From positions 1 to 64,000 of IMG/VR virus record IMGVR_UViG_3300021963_000080: a stretch of 64,000 bases of DNA. One strand, given 5' to 3'. A program made the position numbers and the translations under genes. This DNA comes from a virus. Within the stretch, counting starts at the first letter, position 1. Every line of letters starts with the position of its first letter. The notes beneath the pieces were generated by a model. That model did no database searches. It saw only the letters and a program-made list of their open reading frames with translations, and was not told where the DNA came from. Of this stretch, positions 4,708 through 32,492 are shown piece after piece.

Positions 4708-5196
4708 ATGGTTAATATTCAAAGTGTGTTCAAGAAGTACGATATCAATCCGAATGGCTCCATCAACCGAGCAATCCAGAATGTTAGTTTGGCTATCTCT
4801 GAAGCACCCGATCCATTTGTCACGTCCAATCAGATTATTAGTGCGTTAGGTTGTAAGCCTATACGTGATAGTATCGATGCACAAATCATTGCAAAATGTC
4901 TAATTGAGCAAGCAATACTACAACGTGAGGAGTATATACCGGAGTTTGCCCTTACCAAGGCAAATGAGAAGCTCGCTAATATGAAGGTAAACCATCCCTA
5001 TTGTTTTGTTATGAAGGAGAGTACTGTGGAAGCAACTGCAACGTCTAAACGTGGTGGCGATAAGAAAGCCAAAGCCTTGGAGATTTTTGAGGCTAACCGT
5101 GATAAGAAGCCTAGCGATGTCGCTAAGCTGATTCAGATGGAACTTGGCATTACGTTTGCCAACGCTTATTACTACGTATCGCGCGTATTTAAGTAA
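4708..5196 (+). CDS. Hypothetical protein with putative C-terminal helix-turn-helix
   Basis: Own promoter and RBS; C-terminus resembles that of ORF 24467-24919. Confidence 0.65.
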   Translation: MVNIQSVFKKYDINPNGSINRAIQNVSLAISEAPDPFVTSNQIISALGCKPIRDSIDAQIIAKCLIEQAILQREEYIPEFALTKANEKLANMKVNHPYCFVMKESTVEATATSKRGGDKKAKALEIFEANRDKKPSDVAKLIQMELGITFANAYYYVSRVFK

Positions 5197-5225
5197 GCAT
5201 TTTCCTATGGCCCTTTTGTTAGGGG

Positions 5226-5428
5226 TTATAGGTCTGTTAATTGGAAAAATCCTGTGTCCACTTGGATAATGCACTGTCAATGACGTCCCTGGTTCGAAAC
5301 ACACGTAATACAGTTGTACTAAACGGAAAGCAAGGTTAGCATCGGCCGGTGTCCTTGTATAAAGTTTAGACGATAAAAGCAAACGGCAGTAGGGTGATTG
5401 CTGTCCATAACAATTAACAGACCTATAA
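5226..5428 (+). ncRNA. Candidate structured ncRNA closed by a perfect 18-bp inverted repeat
   Basis: TTATAGGTCTGTTAATTG (5226-5243) is the exact reverse complement of CAATTAACAGACCTATAA (5411-5428); internal nested stems with G.U pairs; no credible ORF. Confidence 0.6.
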
Positions 5429-5453
5429 TGTGTTAAATATTTAAAGGATCAAT

Positions 5454-5807
5454 ATGAGTATCATATATTTAAGTACACGTTCGAAAAAGACTCGCAAGCA
5501 AAAGCAGAAGCAGAAAGATGCTTGGGAGTTGTATAAAGAGAAGTATGGCCTTAATGAAAATAGAGGTCGTACTCAACAAATCGTTAAGACATGGGCCGAA
5601 CCAAAGCTAATGTCTCTACGACCTGGTGCGCTTGATCATAAACAACACAAATCATTGAACAGTGGTGCTGCTGTGGCAACGAAGACTGCGCGTCCAGTAT
5701 ATACCGGCGATCAGATGATTGGAATTGCAGCAATGCATAAGTCCAATCTCGTTCCTATCTTTAGTAGCGAATCTGCTCACGATGTTTCAAAAATGCGGAG
5801 AGGATAA
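5454..5807 (+). CDS. Conserved T4-like hypothetical protein
   Basis: YTGDQMIGIAAMHKSNLVPIF and SKMRRG C-terminal motifs; AAGGA RBS. Confidence 0.75.
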   Translation: MSIIYLSTRSKKTRKQKQKQKDAWELYKEKYGLNENRGRTQQIVKTWAEPKLMSLRPGALDHKQHKSLNSGAAVATKTARPVYTGDQMIGIAAMHKSNLVPIFSSESAHDVSKMRRG

Positions 5808-24919: not shown

Positions 24920-25131
24920 AGTACTGGCTGCTGATTGCCCTGTTCGATTATCAGGGGAATTTCGTCGGGAAGGTCCAGCAAGGACCATTCCCCGACAAGC
25001 CAGCGTGCATTGCTGCGTCTAAAATGACGGCTCCCGTGCTAGGCGATCCCCCTGCAAAGTCTCGCTGCTTCTCTGACGACCATGTCAAAGGGAAATCAAT
25101 CGACAAAGGCCCCCCATTCTTGCAAGACTAA
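24916..25131 (+). CDS. Small hypothetical protein
   Basis: ATGA overlap with the upstream gene. Confidence 0.6.
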   Translation: MKYWLLIALFDYQGNFVGKVQQGPFPDKPACIAASKMTAPVLGDPPAKSRCFSDDHVKGKSIDKGPPFLQD

Positions 25132-25147
25132 CATTAAGGACATTATA

Positions 25148-25420
25148 ATGTATACAGTATATAAATTGACAAACCAGAAAAACCGATCACAGACGTATAT
25201 CGGAACGACTGGCAACGTTGAAAAGCGAATGGAGTTGCACCAATCGCGAGCTCGAGGTGGTTTCGGATCGAATCTTCCAATCTCCAAAGCAATTAGCCGT
25301 GTGGGATTCAACAACTTCAAACTGACTTTGCTCGCCGAATTCCGCTCGCAGCACCAAGCACGTGCGCACGAGCGAGAGTTGATTGACACTTTAGAGCCCA
25401 CACTCAACGTAAACGCTTGA
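25148..25420 (+). CDS. Stand-alone minimal GIY-YIG nuclease
   Basis: VYKLTN...YIGTT..VEKRMELH, catalytic Glu in AHERELI, C-terminal PTLN. Confidence 0.8.
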   Translation: MYTVYKLTNQKNRSQTYIGTTGNVEKRMELHQSRARGGFGSNLPISKAISRVGFNNFKLTLLAEFRSQHQARAHERELIDTLEPTLNVNA

Positions 25421-26322: not shown

Positions 26323-26496
26323 ATGGTTTTTGATGAGATAACGATTGAAGAAGATCCACAGTACGAAGCATATCAGCTTCAGCTGGAATATCAGCAGTAC
26401 TTGGAGTCAGATGAGTTCATTGATGAGATAAACGCAGAGTTGCAAATTATCTCTCAACAAGAAAAAGAACTCAACTCTGTTGACTTCATTGTTTAA
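26323..26496 (+). CDS. Very acidic 57-aa early protein (not in track)
   Basis: MVFDEITIEEDPQYEAYQLQLEYQQYLESDEFIDEINAELQIISQQEKELNSVDFIV*; AAGGGG RBS. Confidence 0.7.
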   Translation: MVFDEITIEEDPQYEAYQLQLEYQQYLESDEFIDEINAELQIISQQEKELNSVDFIV

Positions 26497-26508
26497 TTCA
26501 GGGATAAT
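26480..26508 (+). promoter_or_regulatory. Early promoter copy 7 (variant)
   Basis: TTGACT-17 nt-GATAAT. Confidence 0.75.
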
Positions 26509-26531
26509 CAACTTGTTGGAAAGGAAATAGT

Positions 26532-26681
26532 ATGCGATTCGAAGATATCGTTAAAGTGTTGATGGGCGAAGCCCAAGCGGTTGTGGATGCAGTGGAAGCT
26601 GCGCTGCAGTCTGATGTGACACAGTCACGCGTCTATAATAAGGGCGTGTTGGCTATGCAGGTTGAGTTCCAACCAAAATGA
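26532..26681 (+). CDS. 49-aa early protein (not in track)
   Basis: AAAGGA RBS; MRFEDIVKVLMGEAQ...VEFQPK*. Confidence 0.65.
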   Translation: MRFEDIVKVLMGEAQAVVDAVEAALQSDVTQSRVYNKGVLAMQVEFQPK

Positions 26682-26684
26682 CGT

Positions 26685-27085
26685 AGAGCGAGCTCGTCAA
26701 CTCGCAAAGCCTTAGCCTATCGGGAGATACGCGACAGGCACTATATTGAAGTGCTCTTGTAAAGCTAGATGCGTGCGCGCATATGTGGAGAGTATTTCAA
26801 TATGGGTTACCAACTCCAGTAGGGAGTATGCTAGGTACAATGTGATCGACGGATCGCGCCTGAGCGTACTTCATGAAGCCACCCGACGGTGCTGGAACAA
26901 GTTGGCGCGTAATGTGGACCAAACCTAATCGCAAGACGATTGCGTGAGAAGCTGGATGGAGTTCCAGAACGGTTAGGCCACCCCGTATTGATTAATCCGC
27001 AAGGAGAGACCGGGATATCCGGCACCAGTGGGCAGACTGGTGAATTTACCACTTTTTCCCCCGCCTTGATTTGTCAAGGCCTTCT
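26685..27085 (+). ncRNA. Large highly structured ncRNA candidate
   Basis: At least ten stems visible by eye, many with G.U pairs on the plus strand; no RBS-led ORF; ends at a terminator. Confidence 0.7.
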
Positions 27086-27087
27086 CA

Positions 27088-27115
27088 GCCCCCGCATTCG
27101 CGGGGGTCTTTTTTT
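27088..27115 (+). terminator. Rho-independent terminator
   Basis: GCCCCCGC-ATTC-GCGGGGGT followed by C and T7. Confidence 0.85.
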
Positions 27116-27118
27116 GTG

Positions 27119-27147
27119 TTGACCTTTTATCGGAAATAAAGGACAAT
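27119..27147 (+). promoter_or_regulatory. Early promoter copy 8
   Basis: TTGACC-17 nt-GACAAT. Confidence 0.85.
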
Positions 27148-27178
27148 GGGGTCATAGTTTGAAAAAAGGGAGAAAATT

Positions 27179-27950
27179 ATGATGTTGGTTATTCGCACAC
27201 AATTGATGGAAAACTACGGTGCTCACGACTGGGACGGTGAAGGCGAGTGCCCTCAGTACTGGAAGATGAAGGGTGGTTCAGAATTCAAGATCGCCAATGT
27301 TCCATTAAACATCGACCATGCAGTCGTTGTTGAGATGGCTGGTGTGGAGGAGTCCAACGATCACTATCGTGTCTCAATCATCGATTGGTCTATCGAATCT
27401 AATGACTATCTCTCTTGGTTTGAGCAATCACAGCTTGACTACGAAGGATTCATTCAATGTAAAGAGCCCCGAATTGAATATTCGGAATTGCAAGCAAAGT
27501 ACGCGGAGGCAGTATGAGTTATTTTAAGATGGATCACGGCAGTCCATTTGATCGTGGCAATGCAGACAGTTACTACGGAAGACCAAAGGATCCTCACAAG
27601 GGTGGCGTTGGTGGAGACTCTGGCCCTAGGGTAGTAGATCTCACTGCACAAGAGCTTTGGCAATACAATGCTGGGTACGATTACAACGAACTGTTTGGAG
27701 ATAGAAAATCATGGGATTGAATGACATTCAAATCGAGGGACTTAGTCCCGTGCAAATGGAGATCGCGGACGTCCTATGGAAGTTCGATACACTCGATCAG
27801 ATTGACTCGTGGATTGCCAAGATTCCTACCCGCAGAGGCCGTATTGACGCTCGCGTAGTGCAAAACATGATGGTCGCAGCGGTCCTAGATCAGCAAGATC
27901 CGGACGTAGAAGAAGCCGGCCACTATTTGCGGGCGATCCAAGGCCGTTGA
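27179..27950 (+). other. Three small early ORFs (27179-27517, 27514-27720, 27711-27950)
   Basis: ENYGAHDWDGEGECPQYWK and HGSPFDRGNADSYYGR conserved phage motifs. Confidence 0.75.
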
Positions 27951-31636: not shown

Positions 31637-31676
31637 AAGAGGGGGCGTTGCCCCCTTTTCGTTTTTGTGGTATCAT
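31637..31676 (+). terminator. Terminator overlapping a probable tmRNA promoter
   Basis: GGGGGC-GTT-GCCCCC-TTTT hairpin; TTGCCC(31648)-17 nt-TATCAT(31671); GATAAATA at 31681. Confidence 0.65.
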
Positions 31677-31689
31677 ACTGGATAAATAA

Positions 31690-32008
31690 AGATATTGTTG
31701 TAATCCCTTCAAAGCGAAGGAATTCTGGACGTGGGTTCGACTCCCACCAGGTCCACCAGAAAGAGTATTATAGTGGGTTCGCAAGTATGAGTCGCATTCT
31801 AAAGAGTGCCCTTGAACTGGATATAGTATTCTTCCTAATGGGCCTGCCATGGTTTCGACAGGGTTAGATAGCAGAGACGGCAACACGGTAGGCGATGACC
31901 GTAAATCAAGCAAAATTAATAACTGCAAACGATGAGTTATTCCTAGCAGCTGCTTAATTGCACTGCATGAGTTTTGCTAGTTGAACTTGGAAACAGAATC
32001 AACTAGCC
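31690..32008 (+). ncRNA. ssrA: Circularly permuted two-piece tmRNA
   Basis: T-arm GTGGGTTCGACTCCCAC plus CAGGTCCACCA (CCA end 31758) precedes the 5' piece GGGCCTG...GGTTTCGAC (from 31840); acceptor stem has G3.U; tag ANDELFLAAA* at 31925-31957; outer ends approximate. Confidence 0.92.
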
Positions 32009-32039
32009 ATTATGTTTAATAACAAAAAAGGTATTTTTT

Positions 32040-32492
32040 ATGAAATTGAAATTAGCATTAGTTATTGCCTTGCTTACTACATCCGGCATTGCATCAGCAA
32101 TCGAAGTAGGTATCAACGCAGGCCGCTCATTCACTGGTACTGATCGTAACAACACCGGTATCACAATTGGCCAAAAGACTGGCGCAGTTGGAATTGAAGC
32201 TGGGTTTGATGCATTCCGTAGTGGTGTAGATCAAAACCGTTGGTCATTGATCGGCTCCTATGATGTTACTAAAGTTGCTGGCACAACCGTTGCTGTTAAA
32301 GCCGGCGGTGCATGGCTAGACAACAAAGGTACGACAAGTGATGGCTACACCGCTCTTGTTGGTGCTGGTGCATCATACCCACTATCTAAACAATTAGCAT
32401 TGACTGCTGACTATAAATATCAGATAGGTCAAAAGCGAGTAGATCAATTCAACGGTAGCAACGTTACTGCTGGCTTGAAGTATTCGTTCTAA
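32040..32492 (+). CDS. Outer-membrane beta-barrel protein (OmpA/Ail/Lom-like)
   Basis: Signal peptide (ASA), alternating beta-strands, C-terminal GLKYSF. Confidence 0.85.
   Translation: MKLKLALVIALLTTSGIASAIEVGINAGRSFTGTDRNNTGITIGQKTGAVGIEAGFDAFRSGVDQNRWSLIGSYDVTKVAGTTVAVKAGGAWLDNKGTTSDGYTALVGAGASYPLSKQLALTADYKYQIGQKRVDQFNGSNVTAGLKYSF

What the first reader, a model, noticed from the sequence alone, without database searches (positions are those of the whole stretch)
26682..27115. ~430-nt densely structured non-coding RNA inside the early module
Seen in sequence: after a 49-aa ORF driven by the promoter at 26480, about 430 nt carry no RBS-led ORF yet pair extensively on the plus strand. Stems include GCGAG/CTCGC; a 16-bp TATATTGAAGTGCTCT/AGAGTATTTCAATATG (26742-57/26789-804); CCAACT/AGTTGG enclosing CCAG/CTGG, GAGTATGCT/AGCGTACTT and GTGATC/GATCGC; GTGG/CCAC enclosing CCTAATCG/CGGTTAGG with CGCAA/TTGCG and CTGGA/TCCAG; TCC-GCAA-GGA (GNRA loop); CCGG/CCGG; CACCAGT/ACTGGTG; GCCTTGA/TCAAGGC; then a strong terminator. 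The mismatches are mostly G.T on this strand, as expected for an RNA fold. I cannot match it to tRNA, RNase P, or group I/II intron cores. Inference: a large early phage ncRNA (decoy, anti-defence or scaffold RNA), possibly a new class.
Basis: partly seen in the sequence, partly recalled or inferred. Interest (0 to 1): 0.85.

Follow-up and report, generated by a model that had tools for sequence, protein, structure and literature searches.

The report
Composite phage RNA with tRNA-array core
The 430-base gap is a real, conserved, folded non-coding RNA of a T4-like water phage. Its central part belongs to a large uncatalogued RNA family that in other phages sits between tRNA genes, and what it does is still unknown.

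Summary
Observation confirmed. Window 26682-27115 (+) folds far better than shuffles (z -4.95; minus strand -2.67), has 52% G+C against 41% for the window, has stops in every frame, and matches no Rfam 15 family.

Fourteen metagenome contigs and one IMG/VR contig carry homologues. On 10 sequences, 23 of 104 predicted pairs show compensatory changes, against 1-2 in slid controls.

The RNA is composite:
- A 49-aa early gene, intact in 10 of 10 loci, comes first.
- A 5' module (P1, P2 and a 20-bp hairpin, P3) follows.
- Next is a ~190-nt core of two three-way junctions with invariant joining sequences.
- A variable 3' domain and a terminator close it.

The core is a family of its own. IMG/VR holds 101 loci, 98 of them inside tRNA arrays and 73 directly behind tRNA-Glu, each clamped by an ~18-20-bp stem. 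On 52 representatives, 39 of 62 pairs covary. P3 is a copy of that clamp stem. With P3's 5' strand removed, the core closes as it does in tRNA arrays.

Best reading: a stable trans-acting RNA, here delivered on an early transcript and probably cut free at P3. The function is unknown.

Earlier notes of this scan found the tRNA-array form on other DNA. The early-transcript form is new.

The parts
26480..26508 (+). sigma-70-like promoter of the unit (TTGACT-17-GATAAT)
   Evidence: Consensus scan, 10 of 12 matches. The same promoter and leader can be read in the upstream 60 nt printed for the homologous loci; the L101 row is cut by the contig end and shows only part.
26532..26681 (+). 49-aa gene of unknown function, always directly 5' of the RNA
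   Evidence: Intact in 10 of 10 loci and ends at the first base before the RNA. Variable columns by codon position are 15/13/30. 7 protein clusters at 80-98% identity, none named. No Pfam or PHROG family. The short-form loci carry a 60-75-aa relative at 38-40% identity in MAFFT, although BLASTP gave no alignment.
26688..26705 (+). P1 hairpin (5 bp)
   Evidence: One pair changes on both sides (GC in 7, AU in 3 of 10).
26709..26739 (+). P2 hairpin with invariant GGGA tetraloop
   Evidence: On A1, 3 of 10 pairs change on both sides. With the short forms added (A2), pairs 37-48 and 38-47 change in 5 of 12 sequences.
26740..26807 (+). P3: 20-bp hairpin with a variable tip; a copy of the tRNA-array clamp stem
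   Evidence: Invariant in the long forms but covaries against the short forms at 5 pairs. The 3' strand matches the clamp 3'-arm consensus at 15 of 17 positions and the 5' strand matches the 5' arm at 14 of 19.
26810..26905 (+). Core domain P4: three-way junction with invariant strands and a variable, covarying arm P4a
   Evidence: The P4 base stems are invariant in 52 of 52 sequences. P4a has 8 of 9 and 6 of 6 pairs with changes on both sides.
26914..26981 (+). Core domain P5: three-way junction with two hairpins
   Evidence: Helices 9 and 10 of A6 have 4 of 6 and 4 of 5 pairs with changes on both sides. The window-type hairpins covary on A1.
26982..26991 (+). 3' strand of an alternative 10-bp closing helix; it pairs with 26797-26806, which is also the 3' strand of P3
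   Evidence: Predicted on A4, where 4 of 8 pairs change on both sides between window-type and tRNA-array rows. It forms in the minimum-energy fold of 26787-27056. It is absent from the two class-D loci.
26992..27049 (+). Variable 3' domain (three small hairpins); replaced in class C, absent in class D
   Evidence: Alignment A1 and the fold.
27050..27061 (+). Conserved U-rich/C-rich single-stranded block before the terminal hairpins
   Evidence: The TTTTTCCCC part is invariant in 10 of 10. The short forms carry a related block.
27063..27115 (+). Hairpin plus intrinsic terminator with T tract
   Evidence: Terminator scan. Conserved in long and short forms. This is the only part with a sub-threshold Rfam match.

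Best explanation
Shown: 26682-27115 is the non-coding 3' two-thirds of a ~600-nt unit (promoter 26480, 49-aa gene, RNA, terminator 27088-27115). The RNA has four parts: a 5' module (P1, P2 and the 20-bp hairpin P3), a ~190-nt core (P4 and P5), a dispensable 3' domain, and terminal hairpins. The core is a member of a large uncatalogued family of phage RNAs. Almost all other members lie inside tRNA arrays, start on the CCA end of a tRNA (mostly tRNA-Glu) and are closed by an ~18-20-bp clamp stem. Two members stand alone behind what read as their own promoters. P3 is a copy of that clamp stem. Its 3' strand can pair either with P3's 5' strand or with 26982-26991, which would close the core.

Inferred: the core is a stable RNA that acts in trans. 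In tRNA arrays it would be released when the flanking tRNAs and the clamp stem are processed. In this phage lineage it is instead made at once from an early promoter. The perfect 20-bp P3 duplex is the likely cutting site, by an enzyme of the RNase III type. The cut would leave the small mRNA with P1-P2 at its 3' end and free the core to close with the 10-bp helix.

Inferred, weakest step: the invariant junction strands of P4 form a binding surface for a protein or RNA of the translation or tRNA apparatus, or of a defence that targets it.
For: Structure and strand.

Homologues: 14 of 48 metagenome pattern hits are true homologues, plus L029.

Covariation:
- A1: 23 of 104 pairs change on both sides against 1-2 in slid controls; 97.5% of cells paired against 35-45%.
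- 5' module including the short forms: 9 of 29 pairs.
- Core across contexts: 23 of 45 pairs.
- 52 representatives: 39 of 62 pairs and 493 cells against 37-101 in slid controls; 94.1% paired against 33-38%.

Not coding.

Core as an independent module:
- 117 IMG/VR loci hold the motif and 101 also hold the second block.
- 98 of the 101 lie in tRNA arrays.
- 82 of the 101 have a tRNA ending 14-15 nt upstream, 73 of them tRNA-Glu.
- 95 of 96 evaluable cores have a closing stem with at least 15 of 18 positions paired.
- L278 and L288 carry the core with no tRNA within 2 kb and behind promoter-like hexamers that I read by eye.

P3 as the clamp stem. Closing helix after removal of P3's 5' strand.

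RNA-library contigs of 3 of 4 metatranscriptomic runs (2 studies) lie on 26667-26969. This is weak evidence, because DNA in such libraries cannot be excluded.

Against: - No RNA ends, no processing and no stability were observed. The runs laid are assembled contigs and cannot show starts or ends.
- P3 (20 bp) is far more stable than the 10-bp closing helix, and it is what the full-length fold predicts.
- The two class-D loci lack the closing helix's 3' strand yet keep the core, so that helix is not required.
- The P4 base stems never vary, so they are supported by conservation and context only, not by covariation.
- No RNase III site rule was tested.
- The 49-aa gene and the 5' module always travel with this form, which a purely trans-acting reading does not explain.
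- No tRNA gene, TROVE or RtcB gene lies in the 86.5-kb record. CheckV rates that record only 51% complete.
Confidence: 0.6

Rival explanations
1. The whole RNA is a cis-acting 3' untranslated region that stabilises or regulates the mRNA of the 49-aa gene and has no life of its own.
For: The gene and the 5' module are linked in 10 of 10 long-form loci and, with a diverged gene, in the short-form loci. The RNA starts at the first base after the stop codon. P1-P2-P3 is the part shared by long and short forms.
Against: The core occurs without the gene in 101 IMG/VR loci: 98 in tRNA arrays, and two stand-alone (L278, L288) behind promoter-like hexamers read by eye. A 3' stabiliser does not need about 190 nt with invariant junction strands. 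The pre-terminator block does not covary with the ribosome-binding site between long and short forms (read by eye).
Confidence: 0.2
2. The core is a self-processing or ligand-sensing RNA, that is, a new ribozyme or riboswitch-like aptamer. The P3/closing-helix alternative would be its switch.
For: Two three-way junctions have invariant joining strands amid covarying stems. There are two mutually exclusive helices for 26797-26806. The junction strands hold an AGUA block opposite a GAA block, read from the alignment. That this resembles a loop-E motif is recalled, not tested.
Against: No Rfam ribozyme or riboswitch matches even at E<=10. No gene lies under its control, because a terminator and then a separate promoter follow. 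In tRNA arrays the flanking tRNAs already provide processing sites. The two class-D loci lack one of the two alternative helices.
Confidence: 0.1
3. A DNA-level element, such as an origin, a recombination or packaging site, or a mobile inverted-repeat cassette. On this reading the RNA fold is incidental.
For: The region is dense in inverted repeats. The core appears in different genomic contexts, as a mobile cassette would. A GIY-YIG homing-endonuclease-like gene lies 1.3 kb upstream.
Against: The fold is strand-asymmetric. G-U pairs act as intermediates in covarying pairs. Compensatory changes keep pairing inside hairpins where a DNA site would have no such need. The element is single-copy in the record. 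There are no tandem repeats. It sits inside a promoter-to-terminator unit.
Confidence: 0.03
4. A decayed or unusually coded protein gene.
For: Two 60-aa ORFs can be drawn (26746-26928 and 26940-27122).
Against: Variable columns by position mod 3 are 48/44/46, against 15/13/30 in the neighbouring real gene. At least 3 stops lie in every frame of all 10 homologues, and the ORFs are not conserved between classes.
Confidence: 0.01

Closest known systems
[quoted passage not shown]
   Same: They are phage-encoded small RNAs made from the tRNA gene region of a T4-type phage, with unknown biological roles (PMC3014915, passage; PMC9697503, passages). Most members of the core family sit in the same kind of place.
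   Different: There is no detectable sequence similarity. blastn of the window RNA and of two tRNA-array members against 50,697 phage records found nothing. The window copy is not in a tRNA region at all but behind a small early gene. Lengths of about 120-140 nt for the T4 RNAs are recalled or taken from earlier notes of this scan. The core here is about 190-250 nt.
GOLLD and ROOL (large ornate bacterial and phage RNAs)
   Same: They are large, intricately folded RNAs of unknown function. That they are often phage-borne and near tRNA genes is recalled. Their existence and oligomeric cryo-EM structures come from the abstract of PMC12286853 seen in a search listing.
   Different: No match to any Rfam 15 model, whether in the window, in 5 window-type loci at E<=1 or on the cores of 7 tRNA-array loci at E<=0.1. 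I take those models to include GOLLD and ROOL but did not check this. This RNA is much smaller. Nothing here bears on oligomerisation.
Stem-clamped RNA cassettes of phage tRNA arrays
   Same: The conserved blocks, the P4/P5 architecture and the clamp stem are the same.
   Different: The window copy has lost the tRNA context. It is fused to a 5' module and a protein gene and ends in a terminator. Its clamp is split into a full hairpin (P3) plus a 10-bp remnant.
RNase III processing hairpins between phage T7 early genes and in rRNA operons
   Same: A long, regular duplex lies between a coding part and another functional RNA within one early transcript. That this is the pattern of the T7 and rRNA cases is established knowledge, recalled.
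   Different: No cleavage is shown here. P3 is a perfect 20-bp helix rather than the internal-loop type recalled for T7. Its sequence is conserved well beyond what pairing needs.

Membership tests
tRNA-array clamp-stem RNA behind tRNA-Glu (uncatalogued; defined here by alignment A6) | Conserved sequence blocks: GGUUACCAA-N1-2-CCAGUAGG, GCUGG, UAAUGUG and a GACG loop | tested here: met
   All blocks are present in the window row and invariant across 52 sequences.
tRNA-array clamp-stem RNA behind tRNA-Glu (uncatalogued; defined here by alignment A6) | Two-domain fold (P4 and P5 junctions) kept by compensatory changes | tested here: met
   39 of 62 pairs change on both sides, with the window row included. 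23 of 45 pairs do so on A4.
tRNA-array clamp-stem RNA behind tRNA-Glu (uncatalogued; defined here by alignment A6) | Lies in a tRNA array, 14-15 nt behind a tRNA 3' end | tested here: not met
   No tRNA gene lies in the window or in the rest of the 86.5-kb record, nor in L143, L101 or L125. By contrast, 98 of 101 IMG/VR members are in arrays. The record is only 51% complete, but the RNA's own neighbours are protein genes.
tRNA-array clamp-stem RNA behind tRNA-Glu (uncatalogued; defined here by alignment A6) | An 18-20-bp closing stem around the core | tested here: inconclusive
   Only a 10-bp helix is possible (26797-26806 with 26982-91). It competes with P3 and forms only when P3's 5' strand is left out. 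P3 itself is a full clamp-stem copy.
Any Rfam 15 family (4227 models; taken to include group I/II introns, RNase P, 6S, tmRNA, GOLLD, ROOL; YrlA RF02553 was seen listed) | Covariance-model score at or above the gathering threshold | tested here: not met
   window; 5 homologous loci; 7 tRNA-array loci. Only sub-threshold matches to the terminator hairpins were found.
T4 RNAC/RNAD | Sequence similarity to the T4 genes | tested here: not met
   No blastn match in 50,697 phage records. No covariance model of RNAC or RNAD was available.
Riboswitch or leader | Lies 5' of the gene it controls, with an expression platform | tested here: not met
   It lies 3' of its gene. The terminator is followed by a separate promoter at 27119, and the downstream gene differs between loci.
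Type III toxin-antitoxin RNA (ToxI-like) | Tandem repeats of a short unit next to an endoribonuclease gene | tested here: not met
   No tandem repeat at score 30 or above in 26400-27250. The neighbours have no nuclease family except a GIY-YIG domain 1.3 kb upstream.
Y RNA / YrlA with Ro60 | Ro60 (TROVE) or RtcB gene in the genome, and a YrlA model match | tested here: not met
   No TROVE or RtcB in the record (the record is 51% complete). There is no YrlA match on the RNA. A sub-threshold YrlA match in L205 lies elsewhere in that array.

The most novel reading that the evidence does not exclude
The core is a new functional RNA class that acts on the tRNA or translation apparatus, for example as a decoy or inhibitor of a tRNA-directed host defence, or as a catalytic RNA. 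This phage lineage has rewired it from late co-release with tRNAs to immediate early delivery. The P3/closing-helix alternative would be a processing-dependent switch that activates the core only after it is cut from the mRNA.
Probability: 0.15. Interest if true: 0.85.

Novelty: new variant of a known kind. Interest (0 to 1): 0.65.

Why it matters
T4-type phages have been known for decades to make small stable RNAs from their tRNA regions, and nobody knows what these do (PMC3014915, passage). Here is a family of that kind with more than a hundred members, a complex fold with invariant junction strands, and strong covariation. That is the profile of RNAs that bind a specific partner or catalyse a reaction.

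The window adds a natural experiment. The same core has been taken out of the tRNA array and put behind an early promoter and a small gene, and in two other phages it sits behind what look like promoters of its own. This argues that the core works by itself and that its timing matters. It also gives three genetic contexts in which to test its function, and a 20-bp hairpin as a concrete candidate processing site.

Tried and rejected
- The neighbour-gene route gave only the short form. Of 145 IMG/VR relatives of the downstream 112-aa gene, 80 were kept. Only L029 (short form) and a weak P2-like hairpin in L081/L086 matched.
- Whole records of 50 of those relatives held nothing more, by DNA or by the model of the 5' module. 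The one exception was a weak match in G041. It proved to be a tRNA T-arm plus a long hairpin behind tRNA-Leu.
- The P2 hairpin pattern in IMG/VR (9 hits) brought mostly unrelated hairpins that hold a ribosome-binding site in front of start codons. These were dropped.
- The same pattern in 185,579 species genomes gave 28 hits, with no homology beyond the hairpin. Seven of them are a conserved stretch in Nitrospira genomes. I found no host copy of the 5' module.
- I looked for pairing between the conserved pre-terminator block and the ribosome-binding site of the 49-aa gene. The window has 8 of 10 positions, by eye. The short forms have a different leader and no matching change. Rejected.
- RNP with the 49-aa protein: the protein is acidic by eye and has no family. 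Atlas hits scored below 0.9 and mean nothing. No structure could be predicted. Left open, and thought unlikely.
- Y RNA idea: see the membership test.
- Depth and gaps in the metatranscriptome contigs were not used to rank the RNA against its neighbouring genes.
- Literature searches turned up no description of this RNA. They search words, not sequences, and paper supplements were not opened.
- One search dropped gapped columns before the periodicity count. One search dropped 5 of 101 cores that lie too near contig ends. One search kept 49 representatives of 74 unique cores (cut at 92% identity).

Full report
**Setting.** The window is the first 64 kb of an 86.5-kb IMG/VR virus record that CheckV rates 51% complete. 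Baseplate and tail families mark it as a T4-type myovirus. It carries a two-piece tmRNA at 31651-32022. DNA runs that hold the stretch are labelled marine, estuary, freshwater and aquaculture metagenomes; I did not lay those runs.

- The plus strand folds at -162.9 kcal/mol, z -4.95, with 0 of 100 shuffles as good. The minus strand reaches only z -2.67.
- The stretch has 52.3% G+C in a 40.8% window.
- A sigma-70-like promoter (26480-26508), a 49-aa gene (26532-26681), the RNA, and a terminator (27088-27107 plus T tract) make one unit. The next promoter starts at 27119.
- No Rfam 15 family is matched at gathering scores. At E<=10 the best match is a sub-threshold one to the two terminal hairpins.

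**Homologues.**
- The downstream 112-aa gene has 145 relatives in IMG/VR (80 kept). Only one locus, L029, has a related RNA, and it is a short form.
- A scan of metagenome contigs with the conserved P2 hairpin gave 48 hits, of which 14 are true homologues.
- Seven are full length: L144 at 96% identity, L135 at 76%, and five at about 67% with a larger 3' domain.
- Two lack the 3' domain (L142, L106). Three are short forms (L120, L114, L139). Two are cut by contig ends.

**Covariation and coding test.**
- On 10 long-form sequences, 23 of 104 predicted pairs change on both sides. The count is 1-2 when the partners are slid by 1-3 columns. 97.5% of cells are paired, against 35-45%.
- With the short forms added, the 5' module P1-P2-P3 has 9 of 29 such pairs, five of them in P3.
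- The structure was derived from the same alignments, which favours it somewhat, and the sequences fall into only four or five lineages. The margin is large all the same.
- The upstream gene varies mostly at third codon positions (15/13/30). The RNA shows no periodicity (48/44/46) and has at least 3 stops in every frame of every homologue.

**The linked gene.** The 49-aa gene is intact and abuts the RNA in 10 of 10 long-form loci. The short-form loci carry a 60-75-aa gene in the same place. MAFFT aligns it at 38-40% identity with 13 invariant columns, although BLASTP reported no alignment. The gene has no Pfam or PHROG family. The gene downstream of the RNA differs between loci. So the conserved unit is gene plus RNA.

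**The core is a family of its own.**
- Patterns taken from the invariant strands of the P4 domain found the same domain in IMG/VR contigs without P1-P3 and without the gene.
- The shortest pattern hit 117 loci, and 101 of them also hold the second conserved block.
- Of those 101, 98 lie in tRNA arrays. 82 have a tRNA ending exactly 14-15 nt upstream: 73 tRNA-Glu(UUC), 4 Gln, 3 Ile and 2 Ser.
- In 95 of 96 evaluable cases an 18-nt arm that begins on the tRNA's CCA end pairs at 15 or more positions with an arm behind the core, giving RNAs of 209-252 nt.
- On the window, two window-type relatives and 49 representatives (92% identity cut), 39 of 62 pairs change on both sides, against 16-21 when slid. 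493 cells change, against 37-101. 94.1% of cells are paired, against 33-38%.
- The base stems of P4 and the joining strands are invariant in all 52 sequences.
- These array phages share proteins with the window's phage at 28-61% identity.
- No Rfam family matches the array members. No GenBank phage record matches by blastn.
- Two loci of the 101 have no tRNA within 2 kb (L278, L288). There the core, with a different closing stem, follows promoter-like hexamers. I read this from the sequence and did not run the promoter scan on them.

**How the window copy is built.**
- P3 is a copy of the array clamp stem. Its 3' strand matches the clamp 3'-arm consensus at 15 of 17 positions, and its 5' strand matches the 5' arm at 14 of 19.
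- The last ten bases of P3's 3' strand (26797-26806) can instead pair with 26982-26991, directly behind P5. That would close the core as in the arrays.
- This helix is predicted on the cross-context alignment, where 4 of 8 pairs change on both sides. It forms in the minimum-energy fold once P3's 5' strand is left out.
- In the full-length RNA, P3 wins. The two class-D loci lack the 3' strand of the alternative helix.

**Expression.** Assembled contigs from 3 of 4 metatranscriptomic runs (2 studies) lie on 26667-26969, two of them with 1-2 differences. Such libraries can hold DNA, and contigs show no ends, so this is only a weak sign of transcription.

**Reading.**
- Shown: a real, conserved, strand-specific structured RNA. 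It is composite. Its core is an independent module used in three genomic contexts.
- Inferred: the core is a stable trans-acting RNA. Here it is delivered early and detached from the small mRNA at P3, probably by an RNase III-type cut, after which it can re-close.
- Its function is unknown. Its home in tRNA arrays and its invariant junction point to a partner in tRNA or translation biology, or in a defence aimed at that biology.
- I put about 0.9 on the shown part, about 0.4 on processing at P3, and 0.2-0.3 on that area of function.

**Earlier notes of this scan.** Other agents had already noted the tRNA-array form on other genomes, together with the idea of a shared clamp stem that holds varied inserts. 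These are unchecked AI notes. I tested the family and the clamp myself. What this window adds is the form outside a tRNA array.

Noticed in passing
window 5225-5430 (+): A second ORF-free stretch, between ORFs 4708-5196 and 5454-5807. It folds into a 19-bp closing stem around a multibranch domain (z -5.43, 0 of 200 shuffles as good). A large part of it aligns closely with a stretch inside the tRNA array of L181/L182, between tRNA-Glu and tRNA-Asp, with apparent compensatory changes (83% mean column identity over the whole three-row alignment). It has no Rfam match at gathering scores. It is probably another array-type RNA living outside an array.
   Followed up: partly
window 25082-25420 (+): A 112-aa GIY-YIG domain protein (Pfam E 3e-11; PHROG homing endonucleases). 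It is absent from the otherwise collinear locus L143, so it looks like a free-standing homing-endonuclease insertion.
   Followed up: partly
window 31651-32048 (+): A circularly permuted two-piece tmRNA with tag ANDELFLAAA (Rfam 145 and 142 bits; ARAGORN). The relative L029 has one with tag ANDEKFALAA. The Melnitz methylophage paper reports two-piece tmRNAs in related marine myophages (PMC9004378, passages).
   Followed up: partly
L176 1423-1580 (-), record G041: In the tRNA array of a 163-kb relative, a hairpin of about 80 nt with a 17-bp stem starts on the ACCA end of tRNA-Leu. It is followed by what looks like a tRNA that ARAGORN did not call.
   Followed up: partly
L179 6420-6600 (+); L178, L180 and L185 likewise: Directly behind the core lies a small hairpin ending in ACCA (not in L185), and then another long-stem-closed RNA of about 140 nt before the next tRNA. 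The arrays therefore hold several different clamped RNAs in a row.
   Followed up: no
L205 80-188 (-): A sub-threshold YrlA (Y RNA-like) match, 36.7 bits against a gathering score of 69, E 5e-5, inside a phage tRNA array and away from the core.
   Followed up: no
L081 3690-3990 (+): Upstream of the 112-aa gene homologue lie a P2-like hairpin with the identical GGGA loop stem, two tandem promoter-like sites and short hairpins between them. This may be a different small-RNA unit.
   Followed up: no
L146, L147, L148, L156, L158, L159, L170 (Nitrospira genomes): The P2 hairpin pattern recurs in a conserved stretch of seven Nitrospira contigs. It looks like a coincidence within a conserved gene or element and shows no further similarity to the RNA.
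   Followed up: partly
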